Positions 4,661-44,869 of a DNA stretch of 64,000 nt are shown piece after piece; positions within the stretch are counted from its first letter, which is position 1; each line of letters begins with the position of its first letter. The DNA is from Thermodesulfobacteriota bacterium (lineage in GTDB: Bacteria; Desulfobacterota_D; UBA1144; Nemesobacterales; CSP1-2). The position numbers and the translations under genes were made by a program. The notes beneath the pieces are model-generated. The model was not told where the DNA came from and did not search any database. It saw only the letters and a list, made by a program, of their open reading frames with translations. The DNA is taken from positions 6,359-70,358 of the forward strand of contig DATMAT010000057.1 in the NCBI GenBank assembly GCA_035559815.1, written 5' to 3'.

Positions 4661-4770
4661 GTAAACAAAAGCTCCTTGAAATCAGGAACAGCTAACCATC
4701 GTGAAATATACGGAGTACGAATAGGTCGGATAAAACAGTAAACAATATAACATTTAAAGCTATCTTCATC

Positions 4771-5355
4771 CTAACTTTTATTCTTCCTTAGAATCTTAAA
4801 AACTTCCATCACCACCAGTATGCTCGATGCCAGGAGGAACAGGAAAAACCATTCCTCGATTGAAACCGGCGAGACTTGCAGAACCTTCTGCATGAACGGG
4901 ACATACATAGCCATGATGTGGATACCCTGGGCCGCAAGAACACCCACCACGAGAAAAACATTCTGCTTTAACGAGATCTTGAACACAGATTGGTATTCCG
5001 AGCGGCAGTTGAATACATGATAATTTTCCAACAAGACCATGAGCAATAAAACTATATTGCGAGCCGCAAATTCCTCCCAACCCGATTCCAACAACCAATA
5101 CCAGACTCCAAAAGATAAAGAGCCCATGACCGCACCGGAGACAAGCGTTTGCTGAACCATCAACCGGTTAAAAATACCCTCGGTCGGTTTACGGGGCGGT
5201 CGCAACATTGCCCCTGGCTCCCCGGGCTCAAAGGCCAGGGCGACGTCCTGAATGCCGTTGGTCACCAGATTAAGCCAGAGAAGTTGCTCTAAAAAGAGTG
5301 CAAGCGGTAAATGGCGACGAGTGTCAAGAAAATGACAAGCAGTCCGGTGATAACG
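4771..5355 (-). pseudogene. C-terminal fragment of a P-type cation-transporting ATPase (5'-truncated remnant)
   Basis: The minus-strand frame reads ...LWLNLVTNGIQDVALAFEPGEPGAMLRPPR, which is the TM6/Cation_ATPase_C signature of P-type ATPases. It is followed by four TM helices. The frame stays open only to 5355 and upstream of about 5340 it decodes to nonsense. The only available start is a GTG at 5265. Confidence 0.6.
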
Positions 5356-5511
5356 TTAACAGAGGAGGATACCGTCGAAGAAGTAGTGAAGAAGATGCTC
5401 CACTATGATATAAACCGTATCCCCATTGTTGATAAAGAGGGAAGACCAGTCGGAATAGTTGCTCGATACGACCTGCTTCGGCTGATTTCACCGGTTAACA
5501 AAACAAGATGA
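5311..5511 (+). CDS. Single CBS-domain protein (possibly a fragment)
   Basis: ITLTEEDTVEEVVKKMLHYDINRIPIVDKEGRPVGIVARYDLLRLI is a canonical CBS beta-alpha-beta-beta-alpha unit. It overlaps the open frame of the ATPase remnant, so one of the two is probably not expressed. Confidence 0.4.
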   Translation: MATSVKKMTSSPVITLTEEDTVEEVVKKMLHYDINRIPIVDKEGRPVGIVARYDLLRLISPVNKTR

Positions 5512-5674
5512 AAAACAATAAGCCTAGCCCAAGTAAAACTCTTTTCTTGGCGTGTTAAAAGTAGTTAAGTGGGTAGGTAAAAGTACTCTACCGAAGTACT
5601 TTTACCTACGGTAAACCTTTTATATTGTCGTCGGCAATCTTTAATGAATTTAAAAGCTTAAATCGGAAAAGTTT

Positions 5675-6115
5675 TCAATGGGCAGGGGCTTCTTCCGTTT
5701 CATGTTCCATCATCTCTTTCCCGTGCTCCATCATTTCCTCGCCTTCCTTCTTCATTTCTTCCGCTGCCTCCTCCATCTTTTCACCGGCTTCTTCCATCGC
5801 TTTACCGGTTTCCTCGGCTGCATCCTTTCCCATCTCGGCGGCATCTTCCATCGCTTCGCCGGCTTTCTCTGCAGCTTCCTCTGCCATTTCCGCCGCATCT
5901 TCAGCCGCACCTACTGCCGCCTTTCCAGCATCTTCCACCATCTCACCGGCTTTTTCTCCAGCTTCTTCCATTGCTTCGCCGGCTTTTTCCGCGCCTTCCT
6001 TCACCGCCTCACCCGCTTCTTCAGTCGGTTTCTCCGCCCTCTCCGGACAGGCGCTCAAACCCACTACAAAAACACCTACCGACAGCACGATAAAAAGCTT
6101 CTTGAAGATTGACAT
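5675..6115 (-). CDS. Acidic low-complexity lipoprotein with tandem roughly 11-aa (A/E/G/K/M) repeats and a Met/His-rich C-terminus
   Basis: The N-terminus is a signal peptide plus lipobox (VVGLSAC). The body is iterations of AGEAMEEAGEKAGE. The C-terminus is EEMMEHGKEMMEHETEE. The two plus-strand ORFs across the same DNA are mirror-frame artefacts of the nucleotide repeats. Confidence 0.6.
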   Translation of the reverse strand: MSIFKKLFIVLSVGVFVVGLSACPERAEKPTEEAGEAVKEGAEKAGEAMEEAGEKAGEMVEDAGKAAVGAAEDAAEMAEEAAEKAGEAMEDAAEMGKDAAEETGKAMEEAGEKMEEAAEEMKKEGEEMMEHGKEMMEHETEEAPAH

Positions 6116-6389
6116 GTCCTACCTCCTCCTTTAAGTATTTTCGCTATTCAATATTGAAAAAAAGCACAAAGTCAGAGCATTATGCAATTTGTGCACTAAT
6201 ATACACCATACCATTCCATTTTGTAAAGGCTTTAACCAACGACATGACCGTCGTCTATTTGCTTCAGAAAATTCGATGTTTAATCAGTCCGGAAAGCCAG
6301 ATAAAATTACAAACTAAGAGTCTTCGTTTAAGTGAATAGGATATCCCGCAGTGCTACTTTAGAGCGAACAACTTTAGGAGGGTCAAGCA

Positions 6390-7206: not shown

Positions 7207-8127
7207 TCACCCGGCTCGTCGTTTTATAATGTTCTTACCAGAGACTCGGCGTGTAAATTCTTTGGCGACTTTGAGAAATGCTTGCAAAACAGGAGACTTA
7301 TTATCACGCTTCCAAGCTACATTTAATTCCATCTTTTTCATTGGCTGCCACAGCTCGCGATAAACCACTCCCTCTCTTTTCAAGTCTTTCATCGATTCGG
7401 GAACTAATGATATACCCAATCCCGTTGCAATAAGTCCAAGTATAGTTTGCATCTGGTTTGCTTCCTGTATTACGTTGGGAGTGAAATCGGCATTCTGGCA
7501 AAGTCCAATGATTTGATTGTAAAGACCACAACCTAGATGGCGAGGAAATAAGACAAAAGGCTCGCTTTTTAATGCTCGAAGAGGTATCTTCTGTTTTGCT
7601 GAAAGAGGGTGATTCTCCGGCAGTGCTACGATAATAAACTCCTCCAGTATGGGTTCAAAAGAAAGCTCTTCATCCCGTATGGGTGAAAGAAGAAAACCAA
7701 CTTGAATGTCCTTGTTATGGAGAGCCTCTATGAGTTGAGCGGTAGTCATTTCTTTTAATTGCAGATGAATATCAGGGAATCGCTCTCTGAAAATCTTTAG
7801 AATGTTAGGAATTACATCATATGTAGCAAAACCCTCAAAACCTACCGTAAGCTCACCAATTTCTCCACGGCTTGCACGCTGAGCGGTACGTATAGACTGT
7901 TCGACCCGCTCAAGTATCCTCCGCGCTTCATCGAGAAATGCTCGTCCCGCCTCAGTCAACTCAATTCTGCGTTTAGTCCTGCGGAGAAGTTCAACCCCTA
8001 ATTGTTTTTCCAGTTGGCGTATTTGCTGACTGAGTGGAGGTTGGGCAATATGGAGTCTTTTAGCAGCCTCACCAAAATGCAGTTCTTCAGCGACCGCGAC
8101 AAAGTATCGCAAATGTCTCAATTCCAT
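7207..8127 (-). CDS. LysR-family transcriptional regulator
   Basis: The N-terminal HTH MELRHLRYFVAVAEELHFGEAAKRLHIAQPPLSQQIRQLE is present. A LysR substrate-binding domain follows. Confidence 0.9.
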   Translation of the reverse strand: MELRHLRYFVAVAEELHFGEAAKRLHIAQPPLSQQIRQLEKQLGVELLRRTKRRIELTEAGRAFLDEARRILERVEQSIRTAQRASRGEIGELTVGFEGFATYDVIPNILKIFRERFPDIHLQLKEMTTAQLIEALHNKDIQVGFLLSPIRDEELSFEPILEEFIIVALPENHPLSAKQKIPLRALKSEPFVLFPRHLGCGLYNQIIGLCQNADFTPNVIQEANQMQTILGLIATGLGISLVPESMKDLKREGVVYRELWQPMKKMELNVAWKRDNKSPVLQAFLKVAKEFTRRVSGKNIIKRRAG

Positions 8128-9667: not shown

Positions 9668-11491
9668 GTGATGAGAGCATTCAAAAGAATTAACAGATTA
9701 ATTCAAGGCGGCTCTTCTTTTCTAGTTATGATTTTTTTCTCTGTGTTGCTCTTCTTTTATCAATTCCAATCTGAACCCCCAGCCTCCAGGGCGGACACGA
9801 TAATAAAAAACGGTAAAATTGCTACGCTTAACCAAGATAATCAATTCGTTTCTGCCGTTGCCATCAAAGGGGACGAATTCATTGCAATCGGAAGTGACCA
9901 GGAAATCCTGAACTATAAAGGTCCCGATACCAAGGTGATTGATGTAAAAGGGAAGACCGTTATTCCGGGGTTAAACGACTCCCACTCCCATTTAATAAGA
10001 GGGGGTCTAAATTACAACCTGGAACTGAGATGGGATGGAGTAAGGTCTTTGAATAAAGCGCTTGAGATGCTTAGAGAGCAAGCCAAACGGACTCCAGAAG
10101 GACAATGGGTTCGTGTTGTAGGCGGGTGGTCTGAGTATCAATTTAAGGAAAAGAGATTGCCAACACTTGAAGAGATAAACGAAGCTGCGCCCGACACACC
10201 GGTATTTGTGATGTATTTATATTCTTTAGGGTTTTTGAATAAAGCAGCTATTGAGGCGCTGGGTTATACAAAAGACACAAAATACCCCGGAGGAGAGATT
10301 CAACTGGATAAAAATGGAAACCCTACAGGGCTTCTCATAGCCAAGCCAAGCGCGCTGATTCTTTATTCAACGCTTCTCAAGGGGCCAAACCTCTCTACGG
10401 AAGACCAGCTTAATTCAACCCTTCATTTCTTTCGTGAGCTCAACCGGTTTGGTTTAACCAGTTCTATAGACGCAGGCGGCGGCGGTCAGAATTTCCCCAA
10501 TGACTACCAGGTTGCCAAAAGGCTAGCTCAGGAAGGTAAGTTGACAATTCGTATTTCCTACTATCTCTTTGCCCAAGAGAAAGGAAGGGAGCTTGAGAAC
10601 TACGAAGAATGGATAAAGATAGTTAAACCCGGTCATAATGGCGATATGTTTCGCCCAAACGGATATGTAATGGAAGGAGCCGGAGAAAACCTGACCTGGT
10701 CAGCGGCCGATTTTGAGAATTTCCTGGAACCTAGACCAACGCTCTCGGAAAACATGGAAGGGGAGCTTAAAGCAATAGTTCAGCTACTGGTAAAAAACCG
10801 CTGGCCCTTCAGAATCCATGCCACTTACGACGAATCCATCGAACGTTTTTTAAACGTATTTGAGGAGGTAAATAAGGAGACACCGTTTAACGGTTTAAGA
10901 TGGACTATCGACCATGCCGAAACCATTTCTGAAAGGAATCTAAATAGGGTCAAGGCCCTCGGCGGAGGTATAGCAGTTCAGAATCGTATGATGTTTCAAG
11001 GGGAACATTTTGTGGAAAGGTACGGTGCTAAGGCCGGAGAGAATGCTCCACCAATTAAGAAGATGTTAGACATGGGAATTCCGGTAGGACTGGGTACGGA
11101 CTGTACCAGAGTTTCAAGCTATAATCCCTGGCTGGCATTATACTGGATTACATCTGGCAAGACCTGGGGGGGAACGGTTATTTACCCGGAGGAAAACCGC
11201 CTCAGCCGGGTCGAAGCATTAAGACTAATGACTGAGGGCAGCGCGTGGTTTTCCGGCGAAGAAGGTGTAAAGGGAACGATTGAAGTTGGGAAATATGCCG
11301 ATTTGGCGGTTCTCTCGGCGGATTATTTCTCCGTTCCCGAGGAGGAAATAAAAAATATTGAATCGGTATTGACTATCGTAGGGGGAAAGCTAGTCTATGC
11401 GAAAGACGAGTTCAAAGACCTGGCTCCGTGGAATCTGCCTGTGAGTCCGGCTTGGTCCCCGGTTGCCGAATTTGGCAGTTATGTAAATTAG
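9668..11491 (+). CDS. Amidohydrolase-family metal-dependent hydrolase (Amidohydro_3), N-terminally anchored
   Basis: GKTVIPGLNDSHSHLIRGG is the HxH metal-binding motif. Length is 607 aa. The C-terminus carries GTDCTRVSSYNPW. Confidence 0.8.
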   Translation: MMRAFKRINRLIQGGSSFLVMIFFSVLLFFYQFQSEPPASRADTIIKNGKIATLNQDNQFVSAVAIKGDEFIAIGSDQEILNYKGPDTKVIDVKGKTVIPGLNDSHSHLIRGGLNYNLELRWDGVRSLNKALEMLREQAKRTPEGQWVRVVGGWSEYQFKEKRLPTLEEINEAAPDTPVFVMYLYSLGFLNKAAIEALGYTKDTKYPGGEIQLDKNGNPTGLLIAKPSALILYSTLLKGPNLSTEDQLNSTLHFFRELNRFGLTSSIDAGGGGQNFPNDYQVAKRLAQEGKLTIRISYYLFAQEKGRELENYEEWIKIVKPGHNGDMFRPNGYVMEGAGENLTWSAADFENFLEPRPTLSENMEGELKAIVQLLVKNRWPFRIHATYDESIERFLNVFEEVNKETPFNGLRWTIDHAETISERNLNRVKALGGGIAVQNRMMFQGEHFVERYGAKAGENAPPIKKMLDMGIPVGLGTDCTRVSSYNPWLALYWITSGKTWGGTVIYPEENRLSRVEALRLMTEGSAWFSGEEGVKGTIEVGKYADLAVLSADYFSVPEEEIKNIESVLTIVGGKLVYAKDEFKDLAPWNLPVSPAWSPVAEFGSYVN

Positions 11492-37029: not shown

Positions 37030-37995
37030 TCAGACCGGGATACAACGCCCCGAATCGAAGAGGCAAGTCCAACCAGGTGGACAGCCACTGTTGCCACAAC
37101 ACGACCAACCCGGCGGAGCACACTTTGTGCCATTAGCACAGCAGGAGTGACCAGGCGGGCAGCAACCCCGCCCGCAACACACAGGAGCCCACGACGGACA
37201 GCAATGGTCGCCACAACACCGCTCACCAGATACGCAGCAGCGGTTGCCACAAGTCTGACCCGCCGGGCAACAACCACCGCCGGTGCATACTTCTCCTGGC
37301 CCACAGCAGTGATTGTTACAGACTCGACTAGGTGGACAGCAGCCCTCGATGGTGCACTGCTCTCCCGGAGCACAGCGACGGTTATTGCAGACTCGATCTG
37401 CAGGAGCACAGCCGTCCAGGGTGCACACTTCTTCCGGCGCACAACAACGCTCGTTGCAGACTCGATCTTTAGGGCAGAAGCCGTCCCTAGTGCACTGCTG
37501 CCCATCTGGCACATAACAACCGAAACCGAAGCAGCATCGTTGACCTGGCGGACAGCAGCTTAATGTATATCCGGTTGCCGTTTCATTAAGGATGTGGCAG
37601 CATTCATGGTCTCCCGGGCAACATTCCGGACGCTTTCCGATGCGCCCGCACAACTTCATTTCAGGTGGACAGAGAGGAGGAATGAACTCGCATTGGACCA
37701 AGCACTGTACTCTGCATTCATCACGCAGAATCGCGATTGGAACATCCGGATTATCAATGCGTCCAGCTTTGACGCAGGCACCTACGCAGCGATCAACACA
37801 GGGTTTTTTATGGCAATATTCCATGCACTGATGGTCAGGGTGGCCAGCCCTGAGGCAATCGTCCATACAACGATTCACACCGTTGTATGCCGGGTATATA
37901 GTCTCATTCACTTGGCTAGAAGTCCCAATAGTATAGTAGTGCCCGCTCGTTTTATAGAGTGACCCTTCTGCGGTAAATCCTGGTATCTTGTTCAT
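37030..37995 (-). CDS. Leader-family precursor protein, member 4: 321-aa extremely Cys-rich protein
   Basis: The leader is MNKIPGFTAEGSLYKTSGHYY. About 300 aa follow with more than 60 Cys in iterated C-x4-5-C / CCPPG / CAPxxxC units (...CCGPGEVCTGGGCCPAGQTCGNRCCVSGERCCGDHCC...). Confidence 0.8.
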   Translation of the reverse strand: MNKIPGFTAEGSLYKTSGHYYTIGTSSQVNETIYPAYNGVNRCMDDCLRAGHPDHQCMEYCHKKPCVDRCVGACVKAGRIDNPDVPIAILRDECRVQCLVQCEFIPPLCPPEMKLCGRIGKRPECCPGDHECCHILNETATGYTLSCCPPGQRCCFGFGCYVPDGQQCTRDGFCPKDRVCNERCCAPEEVCTLDGCAPADRVCNNRRCAPGEQCTIEGCCPPSRVCNNHCCGPGEVCTGGGCCPAGQTCGNRCCVSGERCCGDHCCPSWAPVCCGRGCCPPGHSCCANGTKCAPPGWSCCGNSGCPPGWTCLFDSGRCIPV

Positions 37996-38064: not shown

Positions 38065-38403
38065 CTAAGTTCGAGTAGGGCTGCATCCTTTGAGGCATTC
38101 TCGATAATTCTCATCGCAGATAATACAGTGGGTAGATCCCTTCGGGTTTTCAGGCGTGCCTTCACAACCCTCCAAACACAGGACCCAGGCTATATAGCAA
38201 AGACCTCTACAAAGCGAACGCCCGATCCCGCCAAAAAGCCCAGAACCGGGCGATACAGGTAATGGATTAATAGTCAGTTGAGAAATAACTCTTTGCCCAC
38301 AGTTGCTATAAGCTTGCATCGCTATAGACTGGTACTGCTCACTCGTCTTATAAACCGATGCCTCTGCTGTGAATCCCGGTGTTTTCATTTCATCAACCCC
38401 CAT
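38065..38403 (-). CDS. Leader-family precursor protein, member 5
   Basis: The leader is M(GVDE)MKTPGFTAEASVYKTSEQYQ. The core has 10 Cys (...SLCRGLCYIAWVLCLEGCEG...HCIICDENYRECLKGC). Confidence 0.75.
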   Translation of the reverse strand: MGVDEMKTPGFTAEASVYKTSEQYQSIAMQAYSNCGQRVISQLTINPLPVSPGSGLFGGIGRSLCRGLCYIAWVLCLEGCEGTPENPKGSTHCIICDENYRECLKGCSPTRT

Positions 38404-38441: not shown

Positions 38442-38693
38442 TTAGGCCATTCCCCCGCCACCACAGACCCCAAAGCACGCACCGCACGTCAAAAAATCTC
38501 CTGGGTCTGGCACAGGCGACATAACAAGGAAAGCCGCACAGGCTAGGCAAGCGGTCATGCAAAACCTGCTTCTGAACATCGCCGGAACGATCCCACTTTC
38601 TTTCATATCCGAACTATAAGAAACCGTATATCGTCCAGTAGACCTGTATACAGAGGTTTCTGCAGTAAATCCAGGCAAATTCATTTTACTCAT
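38442..38693 (-). CDS. Leader-family precursor protein, member 6 (83 aa from the internal start)
   Basis: The leader is MSKMNLPGFTAETSVYRSTGRYT. The core is hydrophobic with 7 Cys and ends GGGGMA. The RBS GGAGGTGAATAAA precedes the ATG at 38693. The longer ORF to 38768 would overlap member 7. Confidence 0.75.
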   Translation of the reverse strand: MSKMNLPGFTAETSVYRSTGRYTVSYSSDMKESGIVPAMFRSRFCMTACLACAAFLVMSPVPDPGDFLTCGACFGVCGGGGMA

Positions 38694-38748
38694 TTTATTC
38701 ACCTCCTTCACACATTGTTCAAAACCGAGATGAGTGCAGTAATCGGTC

Positions 38749-39135
38749 TTACCAGCCGAACCCGACACCTAGCTCGGTGTCGCAGGTCGTATCTGGCACG
38801 TCCCATTCACCCCAAATATTAAACCAAGTGTTTTTACACCGGTCTGGAGGCCGACCTTCAAGACCCGGAGTCGTTCGACAAGCTTCTTCCCACGATACGC
38901 CCCAAGGGATACCCCACAATATGGCTGAAAACTGTCGCCGTCCGCAGCCTGACCCTTCCGTCCACCAACAGCCGCGCTTAGTACAGTGATCTCTCTTGAA
39001 GCTACCCCAGGTCTGGGCCGGCACAAGGCGTCCCATTTCCGTCGGCATGTACTGAAAACCCGCTCGATACTGATGGCTCCCGCGATATAGCGAAGCCTTT
39101 GCGGTAAATCCAGGTATTTTGTTCATTTCATTCAC
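38749..39135 (-). CDS. Leader-family precursor protein, member 7 (Trp-rich core)
   Basis: The leader is M(NEM)NKIPGFTAKASLYRGSHQYR. The core has 11 Trp and 6 Cys (...RGCWWTEGSGCGRRQFSAILWGIPWGVSWEEAC...). Confidence 0.75.
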   Translation of the reverse strand: MNEMNKIPGFTAKASLYRGSHQYRAGFQYMPTEMGRLVPAQTWGSFKRDHCTKRGCWWTEGSGCGRRQFSAILWGIPWGVSWEEACRTTPGLEGRPPDRCKNTWFNIWGEWDVPDTTCDTELGVGFGW

Positions 39136-39177: not shown

Positions 39178-39597
39178 TCAGATCAGGGTGCAGAAAGAAG
39201 GACTACATCCTATGAAGGGTGCACATATTCTCCTGCACTTTGTCCCCGCCGGACAACAGCCCTCGTTATTACAGCAGGACGTACCGGGCGGGCAACAACC
39301 ACGAGCACAGCAAGGATGACCAGGGGGACAAGAGTGGGTGCCGCAGTTGGGTCGAGGTGGAGGAGGTGGGGGTGGAGTACAAGATACTTCTTTACAAATA
39401 GGTCCTCCTGTTTCTGGGTCATATCCAAAGCAACAGGTCTTCTGCCCATTTTCACATGGCGTGCACCCTTTAATCTGTTGTAGTACTAAGCCGCTAACTG
39501 ACTTGCTAGTCCAAGTCGATTCAAGCGCATAAATCCCAGCCGTCCTGTAGAGCGAAGCCTCTGCGGCAAATCCCGGCATTTTGCTCATTTGACTCAC
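39178..39597 (-). CDS. Leader-family precursor protein, member 8 (20-Cys core with a poly-Pro linker)
   Basis: The leader is M(SQ)MSKMPGFAAEASLYRTAGIY. The core is ...CTPPPPPPPRPNCGTHSCPPGHPCCARGCCPPGTSCCNNEGCCPAGTKC... The RBS is GGAGGTGAGTCAA. Confidence 0.8.
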   Translation of the reverse strand: MSQMSKMPGFAAEASLYRTAGIYALESTWTSKSVSGLVLQQIKGCTPCENGQKTCCFGYDPETGGPICKEVSCTPPPPPPPRPNCGTHSCPPGHPCCARGCCPPGTSCCNNEGCCPAGTKCRRICAPFIGCSPSFCTLI

Positions 39598-39657: not shown

Positions 39658-40041
39658 CTAGTCAATCGCTACCAAGCTGTCAACACAGTCACGCCACGGC
39701 TCACTTGCCGGCACCCAACCCCAATAGCAGCCAGGCGGTTCAGGACAGATCTTTGCATACTTAAACCATTGGCATATCCGGCACTCGGTTTGAAAAGTCA
39801 GACCCCAAAATTTCCATGTGCTGGTCGTTTTATCCCAGCACAATTTTTTCATCGTAAACACTACGCCCGGCATTGATGTTGGCACGTCAACGGTAGATAG
39901 TGTGCCCATCAGTCCCTGGGTAAGAACCAACGCACCTACTCTCACGCCTGCACGATTCGGGGCTACTGCATAGCTCATGGCTGATTTGTAGAGCGAGACC
40001 TCTGCTGTAAACTCAGGCAATTTCATTTCCTTCACCTCCAT
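39658..40041 (-). CDS. Leader-family precursor protein, member 9 (Trp/Cys core)
   Basis: The leader is M(EVKE)MKLPEFTAEVSLYKSAMSY. The core is ...LCWDKTTSTWKFWGLTFQTECRICQWFKYAKICPEPPGCYWGW... The RBS is GGAGGTGAAGGAA. Confidence 0.75.
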   Translation of the reverse strand: MEVKEMKLPEFTAEVSLYKSAMSYAVAPNRAGVRVGALVLTQGLMGTLSTVDVPTSMPGVVFTMKKLCWDKTTSTWKFWGLTFQTECRICQWFKYAKICPEPPGCYWGWVPASEPWRDCVDSLVAID

Positions 40042-40061: not shown

Positions 40062-41057
40062 TCACCGATCATAATACGGCGACATCTTTGTAACCAGGAA
40101 CGGAAACTCCTCGGTCACATCCACACGGGTAAAGAACTTCTCGGTAACGTCCGTCTGACGATTGGTGAAGGAGAAAATGACATCTACAACCTTGCGTGTG
40201 CCGCTGAGAGGCGAATGACGAACTTCTACCGCTGTCAAAGAAGAGTTTTGAGCAAAAGCCTCCGCAGCTTTAGCATAGATGGCGTTGTATCGTACTGCCA
40301 GATAGTTTAAAGCACGGTGGTCGTCAGTGGCTCCGGCATTGTCAGCTATCTGCATTATCCTCATGAATAGCTCCTCTGCTGCTGGGGTGAACTCCTTTGC
40401 TGACATCTTTTCCGGCTTAGGAATAGATTTGATTAGAGAATCGATATCGAATGAATACATCTGGTCGAACACAACAATAGGCACCATGAGTCCATTGCAC
40501 ATCTCTGGCGGGGCGATTGGCCCTCTCATGCCAATAACCACATCAACATCAGTGGGGCGTGGAGCGGGACGTAAGGCCTCCACTAACATATCCAGGTCCG
40601 CAGGGTCGCGCGGCACCAGAATGTATGTCTCCAAACCCTCAATGGTTAAAACCCAGCACATCTGTCTCACCAGGTAGCGGTTCTGTCTATGGGTCAGAAC
40701 CTTGTGGAGTGCCTCTCGGTCGGTAAGCCCGGCTGTCTTTTCCCGCCCTGTAACTTGGGCGAATTCCTTCTCCACAGCTAAACGAGGAAAGCGGGCCTCG
40801 ACCCTGCCCAGGGCATAAACGAAGCTGGGTGTAACTCCGCCATTTGACCCGGTGGAGCTTCCGCATGTAGGACACCCTCCCCCTCCAGCTTGGGTGGGAA
40901 GAATAGTTCCAGTACGACTTTCAGAAGAGGATACTACTGTTGGTGAGTCTTTCACGTTAACGGCTTGCTCTCCCATCTGTTCCTTCGATTCAACATTTTC
41001 TTCCATGATATTTCTCCTCCTTTCAGGATAGATTTCAAAGGCTTCATAATTAGCCAC
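40062..41057 (-). CDS. Hypothetical 331-aa protein associated with the precursor cluster (Ser/Gly-rich N-terminal linker, GGGGCPTCGSS, then an about 230-aa globular domain)
   Basis: It sits between S8 peptidase 2 and the seven-precursor array in the same orientation. Its C-terminal 15 residues (EFPFLVTKMSPYYDR) are identical to the tail of S8 peptidase 1. Confidence 0.6.
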   Translation of the reverse strand: MANYEAFEIYPERRRNIMEENVESKEQMGEQAVNVKDSPTVVSSSESRTGTILPTQAGGGGCPTCGSSTGSNGGVTPSFVYALGRVEARFPRLAVEKEFAQVTGREKTAGLTDREALHKVLTHRQNRYLVRQMCWVLTIEGLETYILVPRDPADLDMLVEALRPAPRPTDVDVVIGMRGPIAPPEMCNGLMVPIVVFDQMYSFDIDSLIKSIPKPEKMSAKEFTPAAEELFMRIMQIADNAGATDDHRALNYLAVRYNAIYAKAAEAFAQNSSLTAVEVRHSPLSGTRKVVDVIFSFTNRQTDVTEKFFTRVDVTEEFPFLVTKMSPYYDR

Positions 41058-41199
41058 AAAGACTCAAAGGAAATTGTTAACGAGTTAGCTTACGCCTTTT
41101 GTCGTGTTAGCGAGTTTGCGTGTTATTTTTCTAGCTCGTAAACCAGCAAACACGTTAACCCGCAAACATTGTTTCTTTGTGCCTTGGTGGTTTATATTT

Positions 41200-41418
41200 T
41201 TATCTCGAACGCCTGCCAGAGAAAACCAGCCAACCGTTGAGTGTGGAGGCGCGACGTTCACATCCGCCACACGGTTTAATCCCAATAGTAGACGTGACTC
41301 GCTTAATCGCATCACCCAGTCCAATTTCCTCATCGCTAATGAAACCAGGAAGACGAACCCGGTAAGGCTGTCCTTTAGTCTTACTTCTTTGACCATTTCT
41401 TGTTTCTTCCTTTTTCAT
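41200..41418 (-). CDS. Small ORF (about 72 aa) with an RLPGF motif and a C-terminal CGGC
   Basis: MKKEETRNGQRSKTKGQPYRVRLPGFISDEEIGLGDAIKRVTSTIGIKPCGGCERR... The RBS is AGGTGA, 5 nt upstream. The PGF spacing partly echoes the family leader. Confidence 0.35.
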   Translation of the reverse strand: MKKEETRNGQRSKTKGQPYRVRLPGFISDEEIGLGDAIKRVTSTIGIKPCGGCERRASTLNGWLVFSGRRSR

Positions 41419-41450
41419 GACATTCACCTATGTTACGCAAATATACATTA

Positions 41451-41478
41451 TAGGGGGACGCTGCAGCGTGCCCCTACC
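41451..41478 (-). terminator. TAGGGGG-ACGCTGCAGCGT-GCCCCTA palindromic hairpin between S8 peptidase 2 and the small ORF
   Basis: It is a near-perfect palindrome of the same family as 22129-22156 and 53394-53417. Confidence 0.4.
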
Positions 41479-41598
41479 TAAGTTGAACGCACAACTGTCA
41501 TTCCCGCACGCTTATGGATACCCCACAGCTCCCCGATAACTACATTCGGGGACAGGATTCGGGTATGACAATGTAAAAAAGCGAATAACGTGAGATAT

Positions 41599-42510
41599 TC
41601 ACCTCCTTAAACCAGACCTTATAATCTGATACGCCCCCCATGCATCAAGCAAGGGTGGAACTACCGTATTTCTCCTTCGCCCGTTCGACCGTGTAATCAC
41701 GACTTTCATATCAGCACCGGTAGCTTTTGGGAACTCTGACCAAAGCAGCGCAATAGCCCCCGTCACAAAGGGAGCCGCAGCGCTCGTTCCGCTGAACGTG
41801 AGTGGTTTGCCATCGGCTCCGAGGCTAGTAATGTTGTCGCCGGGGGCGCTCAGACCTCGTCTCCCTATCGAATTTCCCAGATTGGAGTAACTAATCGGTC
41901 TACCCTGAAGGTCACAGGCAACGACCGGGATAACCCAAGGGTGACGGGTGATAACAGTGCTACCAACTGCTCCCTGATTTCCCGCCGCTGCTACAATCAA
42001 AACGCCTCTCTTTGATGCATAATTCAAAGCCCCTACTAACTCTCGTTCACCTGTGGAAGATAGCTGCGCCATAGCTGCACTCAGGTTTATCACGTGCGCT
42101 CCCGCATCAATGGTCTCGATTAATGCCGCTGCTAGTTCATCGGGAGTGGTACTGGGCATGGGCTCTAGATGCTGGCTGCGGCTATTTCCATTTCCTGACA
42201 TCGTCTCAGCAAAAATAGGACGCACCAACAACGTGCAATCAGGACAGATAGCCGGAGCTACAGAACCCCTCTTTCCGCACAAAATTCCTGCCACGAATGT
42301 TCCATGCAAACAGGCGACACTACTTGCCTGTGCACATGCACCCGCAAGTTTTCCAGGGACCTCACGAATGTCTCCACCTGAAAGATCCGGATGGTCTAAT
42401 AACACGGGCCCGTCAATCAGACCAACTACTATCTCTGGCCTCCCGCTGGCAATATCCATCAAAGCGGTGAGCCTGATTAAATCCAGATGATTCATGCGTG
42501 GATTCCTCAC
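41599..42510 (-). CDS. S8 subtilisin-like serine peptidase 2 (full length, no signal or pro-domain)
   Basis: VGLIDGPV (Asp), HGTFVAGILCG (His), GTSAAAPFVTGAIALL (Ser). Length is 303 aa. It shares more than 60% identity with peptidase 1 across the catalytic core. Confidence 0.85.
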   Translation of the reverse strand: MRNPRMNHLDLIRLTALMDIASGRPEIVVGLIDGPVLLDHPDLSGGDIREVPGKLAGACAQASSVACLHGTFVAGILCGKRGSVAPAICPDCTLLVRPIFAETMSGNGNSRSQHLEPMPSTTPDELAAALIETIDAGAHVINLSAAMAQLSSTGERELVGALNYASKRGVLIVAAAGNQGAVGSTVITRHPWVIPVVACDLQGRPISYSNLGNSIGRRGLSAPGDNITSLGADGKPLTFSGTSAAAPFVTGAIALLWSEFPKATGADMKVVITRSNGRRRNTVVPPLLDAWGAYQIIRSGLRR

Positions 42511-42753
42511 CTCAACCCAGTGATAGGAGTTAAAAACTAGATAAAGACTAAAGGAGAACGAGTACTTACAGTTAATCTTTCAAGTGAGCAGAAATAAACA
42601 ACCGGCGGTTATCGTTAATAACCTGATGTTGTGGACAGAAGTTGCTTAGGCTCTTTATAGTTATTGCTCTCCCTCTCAGGGTGATTATAGGCCTAGTCAA
42701 AAAGTAAAGTCAAGCAAAATTTTGACCGAGTAAAAAAATGGCCTATGTAAAAA

Positions 42754-43695
42754 TCAACTGCCCGCCAGAGCCTTAATCATGATCTTCATCACCTCGACAT
42801 TGCTCTGCTTTCCCACCGGGTTTGGGACGATGATCGGAAGTTGAACCCCTGCTTCTCTGTAAGCCTCGAGTCTTTCACGGCACCTTTCGGCAGGGCCAAC
42901 CAAAGCCACCGCGTCCAGTAGGTCATCGGAAAACGCCTCGGCTGGGCTTACACCAGATTTAATCTTCTCCACCACATCGCCAAATCCTAAGTTTGTAATC
43001 AAGCGCTGGTAGAAAGGAAAGCGGGCATAGCCGGAAAGACCGCGCTTTCCGGCGTTTCTGGCAGCTTCCAAGTCGTCGGAGATAAAACAAGGGATTCCAT
43101 TGGTGATGTCGATATCCGAAGGAGCACGGCCGGCCTTTTCCGCACCTCTTTTAACCGCGCCTATCAGCTTCTTCAAATGACCGGGAGTAGCCATATAGGG
43201 CATGATGCCGTCTGCTACCTCGCCGGCCAGTTCCGCCGCTTTTTCGGTCAGCACCGCCGTGTATATCGGGAGATAAGGGAGTTGTCTTTTGATTGTCAAG
43301 AGTGGCGAGCTTCCATCAGCGAAGGACCTGACCGCTGTCACATATTTTCGCATTTCCTCGATCGGGTCTTTCATGTCAATTCCGAAGCGGTCATTCACCG
43401 GCTTATGACTGACACCCAACCCAAGCACCATCCTTCCGCCTGAAATTTCCTGAACAGTAAGGGCCTCGGCCGCACATATAACCGGCTGGCGCATGTAGAT
43501 ATTGGTTATCCATGTACCCACTTTAATTTTCGAGGTCGCCTCGGCAAAAACCTGGGCGTTAGCCAGGGCGCTGTAGGGTGGCACCTCCGGGGAAAATATC
43601 GCCTCGAATCCCCCAGCCTCCGCTTCTTTGGCTAAAGCGCGAAGGTCGTCTACGCTGCATCCCCATACCGGTGAAATGGTCGCTATCCGTTTCAT
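42754..43695 (-). CDS. LLM-class (luciferase-like) flavin/F420-dependent oxidoreductase
   Basis: 313 aa with a TIM-barrel LLM pattern (...GGFEAIFSPE..., GRMVLGLGVSH). Confidence 0.75.
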   Translation of the reverse strand: MKRIATISPVWGCSVDDLRALAKEAEAGGFEAIFSPEVPPYSALANAQVFAEATSKIKVGTWITNIYMRQPVICAAEALTVQEISGGRMVLGLGVSHKPVNDRFGIDMKDPIEEMRKYVTAVRSFADGSSPLLTIKRQLPYLPIYTAVLTEKAAELAGEVADGIMPYMATPGHLKKLIGAVKRGAEKAGRAPSDIDITNGIPCFISDDLEAARNAGKRGLSGYARFPFYQRLITNLGFGDVVEKIKSGVSPAEAFSDDLLDAVALVGPAERCRERLEAYREAGVQLPIIVPNPVGKQSNVEVMKIMIKALAGS

Positions 43696-43975: not shown

Positions 43976-44869
43976 CTAATACTGATTAATCACATCCCGG
44001 TAAAAATCGGGGCGGAGCAAAGACTCATCTCCTCTTTCCAAGACCGCTCTTATCTCTTCCAAGACCCTTTCCTTATCCTGGGGGAATCTTGCTTTGATAG
44101 GAAGATAATTAGAGATGTGATTCGAAAAGAAATACCCGTCAGTCAGGTTTGTATTCTCGACGATAATTTCTAGCTCTTTTATCATCTGAAACTTATCCGG
44201 GAGTTTGAACTTTCCGTCAAGCCACTCCTGGTAAATCGGAGCCCCCGGGCGGACCTGAAGGGAAAGTGCCCCTACATACTCAGGGTCAGTATCGGTCAAG
44301 AGCCTTCCGGTCGCATATGCATGCTCAAGGCTTCTATCCACCCCGCCAACCCCGAGAAGAACCATGGCCGAGTTTTTGACCCCGGCCTCTTTAAGGATTT
44401 TTGATGCTCTTACCGTCTCCTCGTAATTTGCCCCTTTTTTAATCCTTTCTAGAACTATATCGTCTCCGCTTTCAAATCCGATGTAAACCATCTCCAACCC
44501 GAGGTCCCTCAGCACTTTTAAATTCTCAGCTCCTTTTCTCAGGATGTCGCTAACGTTTGCATACATGGTAATTCGCTGCAAGTCCGGACGTTTCTCCTTT
44601 AAATACTGCAAAATCTCGACCAGCTTTTTCTGGGGCATGACCAGGGCGTTGCCATCGGCGATGAACACCCGGTTGAAATCATATCTCTCCACAGCTTCAT
44701 CAATAATAGTCTTGATCTCATCTATGGGGCGCATACGAAACCTTTGGGTATCTTTCCGATACATGGCGCAGTAGGTGCACTCGTTATGAGAGCAGCCTAT
44801 CGTAGCCTGAAGGATGAAGCTATTTGCCTCGCTGGGAGGCCGGAAAAGCGGCATGGAATATTCAATCAT
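43976..44869 (-). CDS. Radical SAM protein (compact, no SPASM extension)
   Basis: The CxxxCxxC cluster is IGCSHNECTYCAMY. GFESGDD is a glycine-rich SAM motif. Length is 297 aa. Confidence 0.8.
   Translation of the reverse strand: MIEYSMPLFRPPSEANSFILQATIGCSHNECTYCAMYRKDTQRFRMRPIDEIKTIIDEAVERYDFNRVFIADGNALVMPQKKLVEILQYLKEKRPDLQRITMYANVSDILRKGAENLKVLRDLGLEMVYIGFESGDDIVLERIKKGANYEETVRASKILKEAGVKNSAMVLLGVGGVDRSLEHAYATGRLLTDTDPEYVGALSLQVRPGAPIYQEWLDGKFKLPDKFQMIKELEIIVENTNLTDGYFFSNHISNYLPIKARFPQDKERVLEEIRAVLERGDESLLRPDFYRDVINQY

What the first reader, a model, noticed from the sequence alone, without database searches (positions are those of the whole stretch)
40062..41427. Unknown 331-aa protein and a 72-aa PGF-containing mini-ORF sit between S8 peptidase 2 and the precursor array: candidate recognition or chaperone components
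The 331-aa protein has an acidic N-terminus and a Ser/Gly/Thr-rich flexible linker with GGGGCPTCGSSTGSNGG. A roughly 230-aa domain follows (...FVYALGRVEARFP...YILVPRD...VVIGMRGPIAPPE...) with no motif I can assign. Its position in the operon is where a leader-binding (RRE-like) or export-coupling component would be expected. Immediately upstream, a strong-RBS small ORF encodes ...QPYRVRLPGFISDEEIGLGD...GIKPCGGCERR. The R-L-PGF-x-x-D/E-E spacing echoes K-I-PGF-T-A-E in the leaders, so it could be a leader-like decoy, regulator, or degenerate precursor.
Basis: inference. Interest (0 to 1): 0.55.

Follow-up and report, generated by a model that had tools for sequence, protein, structure and literature searches.

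The report
Split PatA-like protease module with mini-protein
The "unknown" protein is a stand-alone copy of the cyanobactin protease domain of unknown function, and it forms, with a real but unannotated 72-residue CxxC mini-protein and an S8 protease, a widespread three-gene core that sits next to arrays of cysteine-rich precursor peptides in many bacterial phyla and one archaeon.

Summary
Both ORFs are real. The "331-aa" protein is 314 aa: its start is the ATG at 41006, behind an AGGAGG site, and it equals HWP93370.1. It is not motif-less. It is a stand-alone PatG_D+PatG_C domain, the DUF of cyanobactin proteases PatA/PatG, and its only fold match is PDB 4UVQ. The upstream S8 peptidase is PatA-type, so the pair is a PatA split into two genes.

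The 72-aa mini-ORF is not annotated in the source record. It is conserved between S8 and DUF in 58 of 63 comparable loci across phyla and has no Pfam or NCBIfam family. Precursors with an MxMPGFTAEASLY…[VI]xP[QA] leader and Cys-rich cores follow in 66 of 69 loci. No other gene is conserved nearby.

The mini-domain also occurs inside membrane-anchored multi-redoxin proteins, next to Tat-signal Cys-rich proteins. Its LPGF segment aligns with the leader PGF box (P 2.7e-5).

Best reading, which is inferred: this is a leader-guided processing machine for disulfide-rich peptides or toxins. S8 cleaves, the DUF is its partner or scaffold, and the mini-protein is a CxxC accessory subunit. An RRE-like identity is not supported. 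The "degenerate precursor" idea is rejected. I found no description of this system in the searched literature.

The parts
41599..42495 (-). S8 peptidase 2, PatA-type leader protease (298 aa, HWP93371.1)
   Evidence: Pfam Peptidase_S8 E 2.5e-27. The closest solved structures are N-terminal cyanobactin proteases PatA/PagA at E ~1e-30, against ~1e-14 for the PatG macrocyclase. The start was set by an exact match to HWP93371.1.
42684..42713 (-). sigma-70-like promoter candidate upstream of the S8 gene (TTGACT-18-TATAAT)
   Evidence: Consensus scan, 11 of 12 matches. This is a consensus match only, not evidence of function.
41200..41418 (-). mini-ORF: 72-aa CxxC mini-protein (…RVRLPGFISDEEIGLGDAIKRVTSTIGIKPCGGCERRASTLNGW…)
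   Evidence: Conserved at 47-73% identity between the S8 and DUF genes in 58 of 63 loci. At least 7990 clusters and 1910 representatives at 50% identity. No Pfam, NCBIfam or PADLOC family. Its C-terminal half hits phrog_32048 at E 8e-7. Not annotated in the source record.
40062..41006 (-). stand-alone PatG_D+PatG_C (cyanobactin DUF) protein, 314 aa (HWP93370.1); the 331-aa GTG reading extends to 41057
   Evidence: Pfam PF18047 E 1.4e-32 and PF18065 E 5.5e-35. PDB 4UVQ by sequence at E 9.5e-6 and by fold at E 1.3e-13, TM 0.62/0.72. More than 8000 homologue clusters at 63-78% identity across phyla.
39658..40041 (-). precursor 1 (127 aa; MEVKEMKLPEFTAEVSLYK…)
   Evidence: Leader motif.
39178..39597 (-). 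precursor 2 (139 aa; …MSKMPGFAAEASLYR…; Cys/Pro-rich core)
38749..39135 (-). precursor 3 (128 aa; …MNKIPGFTAKASLYR…)
38442..38711 (-). precursor 4 (89 aa; …MNLPGFTAETSVYR…)
38065..38403 (-). precursor 5 (112 aa; …MKTPGFTAEASVYKTSEQY…)
37030..37995 (-). precursor 6 (321 aa; MNKIPGFTAEGSLYK…; long CC-repeat Cys-rich core)
36682..36936 (-). precursor 7 (84 aa; …MKMPGFTAEVSLYKTSEHY…)
34119..34925 (-). second, truncated module: S8 copy 1 (73% identical to copy 2 over residues 6-261) joined in frame at a shared E-F-P to the last 12 codons of a DUF gene (…LLWSEFPFLVTKMSPYYDR*)
   Evidence: tblastn and blastn: 49 nt are 88% identical to the 3' end of the DUF gene. The S8 C-terminus, the mini-ORF and the DUF body are deleted.
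33621..34103 (-). precursor 8 (160 aa) with PGF leader, VLPQ site and a phospholipase-A2-like Cys-rich core (…CREHDLCY…)
   Evidence: Pfam Phospholip_A2_4 at 24.4 bits (cut-off 23.9) and Phospholip_A2_1 at E 3e-6. Leader.
33180..33536 (-). precursor 9 (118 aa; MRISTLPGFTAEVSLYKTRGYY…)

Best explanation
The region encodes the core of a horizontally spread, cyanobactin-related but distinct peptide/protein maturation module. It is in effect a PatA protease split into two genes, with an extra small subunit between them.

Shown:
- The 298-aa S8 enzyme is a PatA-type leader protease with an intact Asp/His/Ser triad.
- The 314-aa protein is the PatA/PatG 'DUF' fold as a separate polypeptide.
- The 72-aa mini-protein is a conserved third component.
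- The substrates are the adjacent precursors. Each has an N-terminal box M-x-[MIL]-P-G-F-T-A-E-A-S-L-Y…Y, a variable spacer, a [VI]-x-P-[QA] site and a Cys-rich core that almost always has an even number of Cys.

Inferred mechanism:
- The S8 protease and the DUF protein work as one complex, as they do in cis in PatA.
- The PGF box is the docking element.
- S8 cuts after [VI]-x-P-[QA], a site like those used by cytoplasmic LanP/ElxP-type S8 leader proteases. This releases disulfide-rich peptides or toxins such as the PLA2-like one.
- The mini-protein is an accessory subunit. Its LPGF-acidic strand occupies the same kind of site as the leader PGF box. Its C-terminal helix-loop-helix presents a CxxC pair (thiol-disulfide or Zn) to the Cys-rich cargo and/or to the conserved C-x-x-C arm of the DUF protein.
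- The mini-protein is helpful but dispensable, because cyanobacterial and some other loci lack it.
For: Identity:
- Pfam PatG_D and PatG_C are far above their cut-offs.
- Foldseek finds only 4UVQ.
- The closest solved structures to S8 are PatA/PagA.

Module:
- In 80 genome loci the only conserved neighbours are S8, the mini-ORF, the DUF gene and the precursors.
- The DUF protein is the most conserved part. Median identity to the window is 67% for DUF, 62% for S8 and 59% for the mini-protein.

Substrates:
- 207 leaders share the PGF box. V or I fills P4 of the P-[QA] site in 91%.
- Cores are 12% Cys. None lacks Cys. The Cys count is even in 123 of 127.
- Cargo includes PLA2-like and Stig1-like Cys-rich domains.
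- The ElxP motif (L/V at -4, Q at -1) for a cytoplasmic S8 leader protease comes from PMC10885120.

Mini-protein:
- L-P-(G)-F and C-x-x-C are invariant.
- The model puts CGGC at the start of helix 2 (low confidence).
- In a second, independent context the domain is embedded between TlpA-like redoxin domains, and the next gene is a Tat-signal protein with 14-19% Cys in 23 of 26 loci.
- The profile-profile match of the LPGF strand to the leader box has P 2.7e-5.
Against: - No binding, cleavage or redox experiment exists for any member. The roles of the DUF protein and the mini-protein are inferred from gene context only.
- PatG-DUF did not bind its precursor by NMR (PMC4259220).
- Loci without the mini-ORF (6 cyanobacteria, Anaerolineae, Methanoperedens, one Edaphobacter) still have Cys-rich cores, so the mini-protein is not required for Cys-rich cargo.
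- LPGF is retained in the redoxin fusions, which have no PGF-leader peptides nearby. It may therefore be a structural feature of the domain rather than a leader mimic.
- The mini-protein model is low confidence (pLDDT 52).
- No component has a signal peptide and no exporter or oxidase is conserved nearby. Where and how disulfides form is unexplained.
- The A-E-A-S in the box also resembles the PatA site G(L/V)E(A/P)S, so the cleavage site is ambiguous.
Confidence: 0.45

Rival explanations
1. The mini-protein is a pseudo-substrate gatekeeper of the S8 protease. Its LPGF-x-x-D/E-E-E strand sits in the substrate cleft in place of PGF-T-A-E-A-S but cannot be cut, because acidic residues replace Ala-Ser. 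It would hold the cytoplasmic protease inactive until cargo is ready, or until its CxxC changes state.
For: - The profile match of the two motifs keeps the acid at +3 and the hydrophobic residue at +6 after Phe.
- A-E-A-S in the leader resembles the PatA site G(L/V)E(A/P)S, and the S8 enzyme is PatA-type.
- The mini-ORF sits immediately after the S8 gene.
- Cytoplasmic S8 leader proteases need control of timing, as stated for ElxP in PMC10885120.
Against: - The same domain, LPGF included, occurs inside redoxin proteins in loci with no S8 gene.
- Loci lacking the mini-ORF keep an otherwise identical S8.
- There is no direct evidence for inhibition.
Confidence: 0.15
2. The DUF protein does not recognise the leader. 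It acts on the cores, as a folding or oxidation catalyst or a holdase for Cys-rich cargo, or it couples them to export. S8 alone reads the leader.
For: - PatG-DUF did not bind PatE or heterocyclised PatE.
- The DUF protein has very many invariant polar residues and invariant Cys (C45, C117, C170), which is more typical of an enzyme than of a simple docking domain.
- No other candidate for handling the Cys-rich cores is conserved in the loci.
Against: - The folded domain has no recognisable redox or enzyme fold or motif. Foldseek finds only 4UVQ.
- No oxidant-linked partner is encoded nearby.
- Cyanobactin cores that coexist with the homologous DUF are not disulfide-rich (general knowledge of patellamides).
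Confidence: 0.2
3. The mini-ORF is itself a conserved substrate or product: a leader-like N-terminus followed by a conserved ~45-residue core. It might be a signalling or immunity peptide, or a degenerate precursor.
For: - It shares the hydrophobic-P-G-F-x-x-acid motif with the leaders.
- It is small and lies in the same operon.
Against: - It lacks the S-L-Y…Y box and the [VI]-x-P-[QA] site.
- It lies upstream of the DUF gene in the 58 loci where it was located, never in the precursor array.
- It is 47-73% identical across phyla while the cores are hypervariable.
- The same domain is an internal domain of large redoxin proteins.
Confidence: 0.07
4. The mini-ORF is a chance ORF and the 331-aa protein is an unrelated housekeeping gene.
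For: - The mini-ORF is not annotated in the source record.
Against: - The protein sequence is conserved across phyla in a fixed syntenic position.
- Thousands of homologues exist.
- The DUF gene is found next to S8 and precursors in nearly every locus.
Confidence: 0.01

Closest known systems
PatA, the N-terminal cyanobactin protease (S8 domain + C-terminal DUF; TIGR03895)
   Same: - The S8 catalytic domain is closest to the PatA/PagA structures (E ~1e-30).
- The DUF has the same two Pfam subdomains and the same fold.
- The gene order S8 then DUF is the same, with ribosomal precursors adjacent.
- The leader contains an A-E-A-S that resembles the PatA site G(L/V)E(A/P)S.
   Different: - It is split into two genes, with a third gene (the mini-ORF) between them in most loci.
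- Both halves score far below the TIGR03895 cut-off (113 and 38 bits against 421).
- No heterocyclase, macrocyclase, oxidase, PatB/C or prenyltransferase is conserved nearby.
- The cores are 30-300 aa and Cys-rich, not 6-20-aa macrocycle cassettes, and there is no AYDG-type C-terminal recognition sequence.
- It is found mostly outside cyanobacteria and in one archaeal MAG.
PatG-DUF crystal structure (PDB 4UVQ; Mann et al. 2014, PMC4259220)
   Same: The fold is the same (Foldseek E 1.3e-13, TM 0.72 on the target). Sequence motifs such as R-A-L-N-[FY] are shared.
   Different: - Only ~21% identity.
- It stands alone, with a disordered acidic/Gly-Ser N-terminal arm that carries a conserved C-x-x-C.
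- It is far more conserved within its own family.
- The function of 4UVQ is itself unknown, and it did not bind its precursor.
LanP/ElxP-type S8 leader proteases of class I lanthipeptides
   Same: - They are S8 proteases that remove an N-terminal leader.
- The ElxP motif (D/E at -5, L/V at -4, x, x, Q at -1; cytoplasmic enzyme; PMC10885120) resembles the [VI]-x-P-[QA] site here.
- An upstream conserved box plus a cleavage site is the same leader logic.
   Different: - No LanB/LanC or other modifying enzyme is present.
- The protease is phylogenetically PatA-like.
- The cores look disulfide-rich rather than thioether-linked.
   Same: Only the expected operon role: a small non-catalytic leader-binding partner.
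   Different: No sequence or fold similarity to PqqD/RRE was detected for either protein.
TlpA/ResA-type thiol-disulfide oxidoreductases (AhpC/TSA-Redoxin)
   Same: The mini-domain is found fused between such domains. It has its own CxxC, predicted at a helix N-terminus.
   Different: The mini-protein is about 45 folded residues and is not a thioredoxin fold. Redox activity has not been tested.
Polymorphic toxin / bacteriocin cassette arrays
   Same: - A conserved N-terminal part is followed by hypervariable C-terminal cargo, with several paralogues per locus.
- Displaced partial modules occur downstream (the S8::DUF-tail fusion in the window; DUF 3' fragments in other loci).
   Different: - No immunity genes or secretion-system genes were recognised.
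- The cargo is mostly small Cys-rich peptides.

Membership tests
Pfam PatG_D (PF18047) + PatG_C (PF18065) domain family | Both HMMs matched above the gathering score, in the order D then C | tested here: met
   112.9 bits (cut-off 27) at residues 79-259 and 120.3 bits (cut-off 25.9) at residues 219-328 of the 331-aa reading.
Pfam PatG_D (PF18047) + PatG_C (PF18065) domain family | PatG-DUF three-dimensional fold | tested here: met
   AF2 model with domain pLDDT 75-88. Foldseek top and only significant hit is 4UVQ at E 1.3e-13, TM 0.62/0.72.
PatA/PatG cyanobactin maturation protease (NCBIfam TIGR03895) | A single polypeptide with S8 domain plus DUF that scores above the curated cut-off (421 bits) | tested here: not met
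   The DUF protein scores 38.4 bits and the S8 protein 113.5 bits. They are two separate genes with a third gene between them.
Cyanobactin biosynthetic gene cluster | Companion genes (PatD-type heterocyclase and/or PatG macrocyclase, PatB/PatC, PatF-type prenyltransferase) | tested here: not met
   Clustering of all ORFs of at least 80 aa in 80 loci finds only DUF, S8 and precursors conserved.
Cyanobactin biosynthetic gene cluster | Precursor with RSII G(L/V)E(A/P)S before the core and RSIII (AYDG-like) after each short core | tested here: inconclusive
   An A-E-A-S element exists inside the N-terminal box (E 81%, S 78%). No C-terminal recognition sequence was seen. Cores have a median of 43 aa and are Cys-rich.
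RiPP recognition element (PqqD-like) | PqqD/RRE winged-helix sequence family or fold | tested here: not met
   Neither protein has a Pfam or NCBIfam PqqD-type hit. The fold search returns only 4UVQ.
RiPP recognition element (PqqD-like) | Direct binding of the leader peptide | not testable with these tools
   This needs ITC, fluorescence polarisation, pull-down or a multimer prediction. The only related data, PatG-DUF against PatE, were negative.
Thioredoxin-superfamily oxidoreductase (for the mini-protein) | CxxC motif | tested here: met
   C50 and C53 (CGGC) are invariant in 32+32 sequences.
Thioredoxin-superfamily oxidoreductase (for the mini-protein) | Thioredoxin fold or family HMM | tested here: not met
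   No Pfam hit. The model shows only two helices, at pLDDT 52. Redoxin domains are fusion partners, not the domain itself.
PGF-CTERM / archaeosortase sorting signal | PGF followed by a C-terminal transmembrane helix and a basic tail at the protein's C-terminus | tested here: not met
   PGF lies at residues 24-26 of 72 in the mini-protein and at residues ~4-12 of the precursors. No TM segment follows.
S8 subtilase, PatA-type (for the neighbouring peptidase) | Asp/His/Ser triad and best similarity to N-terminal cyanobactin proteases, without the macrocyclase insertion | tested here: met
   Pfam S8. GLIDG…HGT…GTSAAAP motifs. PDB 4H6W/3ZXX/4H6V at E 1e-29 to 1e-31 against PatG macrocyclase at 4e-14.

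The most novel reading that the evidence does not exclude
S8 + mini-protein + stand-alone PatG-type DUF is a self-contained, horizontally mobile machine that matures polymorphic disulfide-rich peptides and toxins. In this reading the DUF is the leader-docking or regulatory partner of the protease. The 72-aa protein founds a new CxxC domain family dedicated to Cys-rich cargo, and it docks by mimicking the leader's PGF box. That would give the first functional context to the cyanobactin DUF, which was still called a domain of unknown function in a 2025 paper, and would define an undescribed class of bacterial and archaeal Cys-rich ribosomal products.
Probability: 0.2. Interest if true: 0.8.

Novelty: new variant of a known kind. 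Interest (0 to 1): 0.6.

Why it matters
- **DUF function.** The function of the PatA/PatG DUF has been open since its structure was solved in 2014. A 2025 cyanobactin paper still calls it a domain of unknown function. Here the same fold appears as a separate, extremely conserved protein (63-78% identity from Thermodesulfobacteriota to cyanobacteria, Nitrosospira and a Methanoperedens MAG) in a minimal three-gene module. That is a much cleaner system for finding out what the domain does.
- **Scale of the module.** It marks a very large, uncurated reservoir of Cys-rich ribosomal peptides and small toxins. There are at least 8000 clusters at 90% identity for both the DUF protein and the mini-protein, at least 432 of 185,579 species genomes carry it, and each locus has 1-9 precursors.
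- **Annotation gap.** Standard annotation misses part of it. In the record this window comes from, the mini-ORF was not called.
- **New small domain.** The mini-protein is a new small domain tied to Cys-rich proteins in two independent gene contexts.

Tried and rejected
- **RRE/PqqD identity for either protein.** No sequence or fold support.
- **PGF-CTERM.** The motif is in the wrong position and no TM segment follows.
- **Defence or phage origin.** PADLOC gives only a generic subtilase hit for S8. PHROGs gives nothing for the DUF protein and one unknown-function family for the C-terminal half of the mini-protein.
- **Upstream LLM oxidoreductase (42754..43695) and radical-SAM gene (43976..44869) as part of the system.** Neither is conserved in other loci.
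- **Correlation between the mini-ORF and Cys-rich cores.** Loci without the mini-ORF have equally Cys-rich cores, so this argument is dropped.
- **Intermolecular Zn(Cys)4 site between the mini-protein CxxC and the DUF-arm CxxC.** Weakened, because the DUF arm keeps its Cys pair in loci that lack the mini-ORF. Not excluded.
- **S8-DUF fusion in cyanobacteria.** The two genes are in the same frame but separated by one stop codon, so they are still two genes.
- **P0298 (3257 aa, 19 'matches' to the mini-protein profile).** A low-complexity repeat artefact. P0266 and P0246 look like run-on gene calls.
- **Leader-profile protein search.** It scored only 95 candidates of at most 70 aa and gave no view of the cargo repertoire.
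- **Literature searches.** Searches for the leader motif, the Pfam accessions and cyanobactin-like systems outside cyanobacteria found no description.
- **AF2 of the mini-protein alone.** Too low in confidence to use for a fold search.
Full report
**Observation.** All genes discussed lie on the minus strand. The ORF listing shows the S8 peptidase at 41599..42510 and a small ORF at 41200..41427. It also shows a 331-aa ORF at 40062..41057 and, from 40041 downward, a run of ORFs that begin with …PGFTAE.SLY. The DNA shows AGGAGG 8 nt before the ATG at 41006. The 314-aa product from that ATG is identical to HWP93370.1 from a Thermodesulfobacteriota MAG (contig 90,938 bp), and all homologues are about 310 aa. 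The 331-aa reading is therefore 17 codons too long. The S8 gene starts at the ATG at 42495 (298 aa, HWP93371.1). The mini-ORF most likely starts at the ATG at 41418 (72 aa), behind AGGTG. Neither its 72-aa nor its 75-aa product is in the protein collection, and the accessions of its two neighbours are consecutive. It was therefore not annotated in the source record.

**What the 314-aa protein is.**
- Pfam assigns PatG_D (PF18047, E 1.4e-32) and PatG_C (PF18065, E 5.5e-35).
- NCBIfam aligns it to the C-terminal half of TIGR03895, the PatA/PatG cyanobactin maturation protease, but far below the cut-off.
- An AF2 model has pLDDT 75-88 in the folded domain, and residues 1-59 are disordered. It matches only 4UVQ in the PDB (E 1.3e-13, TM 0.62/0.72). 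Every other hit is noise.
- The neighbouring S8 enzyme is closest to the N-terminal cyanobactin proteases PatA/PagA (E ~1e-30). It is much further from the PatG macrocyclase.
- Together the two genes equal a PatA split into separate polypeptides.
- The 2014 structure paper found a novel fold and no binding to the precursor PatE by NMR. A 2025 cyanobactin paper still calls it a domain of unknown function.

**Distribution and synteny.** A scan of one genome per species found 432 encoding loci. These include Acidobacteriota, Nitrosospira/Nitrosomonas, Methylobacter, Nitrospira, Brocadia, cyanobacteria, Chloroflexota, Verrucomicrobiota, Flavobacteriaceae, Spirochaetia and a Methanoperedens MAG. 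Identity to the window protein is 63-78%. The counts below come from the 80 best loci.

| Feature | Loci |
|---|---|
| More than 1.5 kb upstream of the DUF gene | 68 |
| S8 directly upstream of the DUF gene | 63 of 68 |
| Mini-ORF homologue between S8 and DUF | 58 of 63 |
| More than 1.5 kb downstream of the DUF gene | 69 |
| At least one PGF-leader precursor within 4 kb downstream | 66 of 69 (median 2, maximum 6) |

All-against-all clustering of ORFs of at least 80 aa found no other conserved neighbour. There is no transporter, no modifying enzyme and no immunity gene. The LLM oxidoreductase and radical-SAM genes upstream in the window are therefore not part of the system. Median identity to the window is 67% for the DUF protein, 62% for S8 and 59% for the mini-protein. 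The DUF protein is the most constrained component.

**The mini-protein.**
- Extracted homologues are 63-96 aa. They have a variable charged N-terminus followed by …[HY]-R-V-R-L-P-G-F-[IL]-x-[DE]-E-E-[IV]-G-L-G-D-[VA]-I-K-R-x-T-x-x-x-G-I-K-P-C-G-G-C-E-[RK]-R-A-A-A-L-N-R-W-M-x-F.
- L, P, F, both Cys and several Gly are invariant.
- A word-indexed search returned 7990 clusters, all without a Pfam domain. An exhaustive profile search found 1910 representatives at 50% identity.
- AF2 gives only a low-confidence helix (34-45), loop (GIKPCGG) and helix (53-68).
- The C-terminal half matches an unknown-function phage family and a few phage hypothetical proteins.
- The mini-ORF is absent from six cyanobacterial loci. 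There S8 and DUF are in the same frame, separated by a single stop codon. It is also absent from an Anaerolineae locus, the Methanoperedens locus and a rearranged Edaphobacter locus.

**The substrates.** 207 precursors were anchored on the PGF motif.
- P, F and A of P-G-F-x-A are invariant by the search pattern itself; the unconstrained positions are G 90%, T 68%, E 81%, S 78%, L 69% and a Tyr at +15 in 74%.
- About 30 residues later comes [VI]-x-P-[QA], with V or I in 91% at the P4 position.
- Beyond that site the cores have a median of 43 aa and are 12% Cys. None lacks Cys. The Cys count is even in 123 of 127, and whole precursors are even in 156 of 185. This parity is what all-paired disulfides predict.
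- The window has nine such genes. They include a 321-aa CC-repeat protein (37030..37995) and a PLA2-like protein (33621..34103). One cargo elsewhere is Stig1-like.
- The [VI]-x-P-[QA] element resembles the ElxP recognition motif (L/V at -4, Q at -1) of a cytoplasmic S8 lanthipeptide leader protease.
- The A-E-A-S inside the box resembles the PatA site G(L/V)E(A/P)S. Both published motifs come from PMC10885120.

**An independent context for the mini-domain.** Three longer hits (P0294, P0390, P0334) carry the mini-domain fused to AhpC/TSA-Redoxin (TlpA-like, CxxC) domains. Two of them have an N-terminal TM helix. A metagenome scan recovered dozens of such genes. Their loci have no S8, no DUF and no PGF-leader peptides. 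In 23 of 26 of them the next gene encodes a Tat-signal protein of 140-245 aa with 14-19% Cys in CC…G…CC repeats. The three exceptions are cut at a contig end. These proteins are the same style as the window's 321-aa core. The mini-domain is thus linked to Cys-rich proteins twice over, and once it is physically linked to thiol-disulfide oxidoreductase domains.

**The PGF echo.** hhalign of the mini-protein profile against the leader profile aligns VRLPGFIxDEEI with MxMPGFTAEASL over 12 columns, P 2.7e-5, probability 75%. The resemblance is more than a shared tripeptide. But the redoxin fusions keep LPGF without PGF-leader peptides nearby. The strand may therefore be intrinsic to the domain rather than an evolved mimic.

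**Mechanism (inferred).** S8 and DUF act together, as in PatA. The PGF box is the docking element. S8 cuts after [VI]-x-P-[QA]; the alternative site is after A-E-A-S. This releases disulfide-rich peptides or toxins. The mini-protein is an accessory subunit that contributes a CxxC pair and a leader-like strand. What is shown is the identity of the parts and their co-occurrence. Who binds what, where cleavage occurs, and whether the CxxC is redox-active or metal-binding are all inferred. Export and the site of disulfide formation are unexplained, because nothing in the module has a signal peptide.

**Comparison and novelty.** The DUF protein is a member of the Pfam PatG_D/PatG_C family. The S8 enzyme is PatA-like. 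The locus nevertheless fails the defining features of a cyanobactin cluster: it has split genes, sub-threshold TIGR03895 scores, no companion enzymes and large Cys-rich cores. It is best filed as a new variant of a leader-protease RiPP/bacteriocin system, with an undescribed small-protein family. Text searches for the leader motif, the Pfam accessions and related keywords found no description. The library is incomplete, so prior description cannot be excluded.

**Other structure in the window.** S8 copy 1 (34119..34925) is 73% identical to copy 2. At a shared E-F-P it runs straight into the last 12 codons of a DUF gene, and 49 nt there are 88% identical to 40062..40110. It is followed by the PLA2-like precursor and one more precursor. 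This is a displaced, internally deleted second module. Fragments of the DUF 3' end recur inside the precursor arrays of many other loci. That pattern suggests cassettes are gained by recombination within the highly conserved DUF gene.

Noticed in passing
window 34119..34925 (-), with 33621..34103 and 33180..33536: A second S8 gene (73% identical to copy 2) is joined in frame, at a shared Glu-Phe-Pro, to the last 12 codons of a DUF gene (…LLWSEFPFLVTKMSPYYDR*). The S8 C-terminus, the mini-ORF and the DUF body are deleted. Two more PGF-leader precursors follow, one with a phospholipase-A2-like core.
   Followed up: yes
L001 11422..11574; L009 11134..11280; L059 11284..11568; L072 11494..11814; L050 7215..7466; L061 7358..8234: Fragments of the 3' part of the DUF gene (residues ~210-314) recur inside or beside the precursor arrays of many loci. 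In L044 a DUF tail runs in frame into a precursor. This looks like displaced cassettes left by recombination within the conserved DUF gene, as in polymorphic-toxin loci.
   Followed up: partly
L088 6347..7600 (+) and 7611..8117 (+); likewise L081-L116, L146: The mini-protein domain also exists as an internal domain of 253-578-aa proteins (some cut at contig ends; typically a TM helix, 1-2 redoxin domains, the mini-domain, then another redoxin domain). In 23 of 26 loci the next gene is a Tat-signal, CC-repeat protein with 14-19% Cys. No S8, DUF or PGF leader is present there.
   Followed up: yes
L003 ~9949..10001; L005, L021, L036, L072: In cyanobacterial loci the mini-ORF is absent. S8 and DUF are in the same reading frame, separated by a single stop codon and about 6 codons (…KSRS*RSNGFMNDTE…). 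This could be a recent split, a recent fusion or possible read-through.
   Followed up: partly
207 precursors in L001-L080 and the window: Cores after the [VI]-x-P-[QA] site have an even number of Cys in 123 of 127 cases and none has zero Cys. This is a strong signature of fully paired disulfides in products that have no signal peptide and no linked exporter.
   Followed up: partly
L076 (Candidatus Methanoperedens MAG) 3192..6179: An archaeal MAG carries S8, DUF (63% identical to the window) and three PGF-leader precursors, without the mini-ORF. This implies transfer across domains, or a binning error.
   Followed up: no
window 35269..36539 (-): Four small ORFs (77, 112, 109 and 97 aa), which by eye (not tested) look like a zinc-finger/antitoxin-like protein and a DUF104-like antitoxin, sit between the main precursor array and the truncated second module. 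They are possibly inserted toxin-antitoxin-type genes.
   Followed up: no
window 41203..41308 (mini-protein residues 32-67): The GLGD…C-x-x-C…LN half of the mini-protein matches phrog_32048 (unknown function, E 8e-7) and hypothetical proteins of Nonlabens phages P12024S/L. The small domain therefore has a wider, uncharacterised distribution.
   Followed up: partly
window 41419..41598 and 41007..41199: The spacers S8-to-mini (180 bp) and mini-to-DUF (193 bp) are much longer here than in most other loci (often 10-100 bp). The first contains a TATAAT-like hexamer at about 41447-41452. Neither was examined for regulatory RNA or promoters beyond the consensus scan.
   Followed up: no
L016 7921..8577 (+): One PGF-leader cargo (218 aa) matches the plant Stig1 Cys-rich secreted-protein family (E 3e-9). 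This is another secreted-type disulfide-rich domain behind this leader.
   Followed up: no
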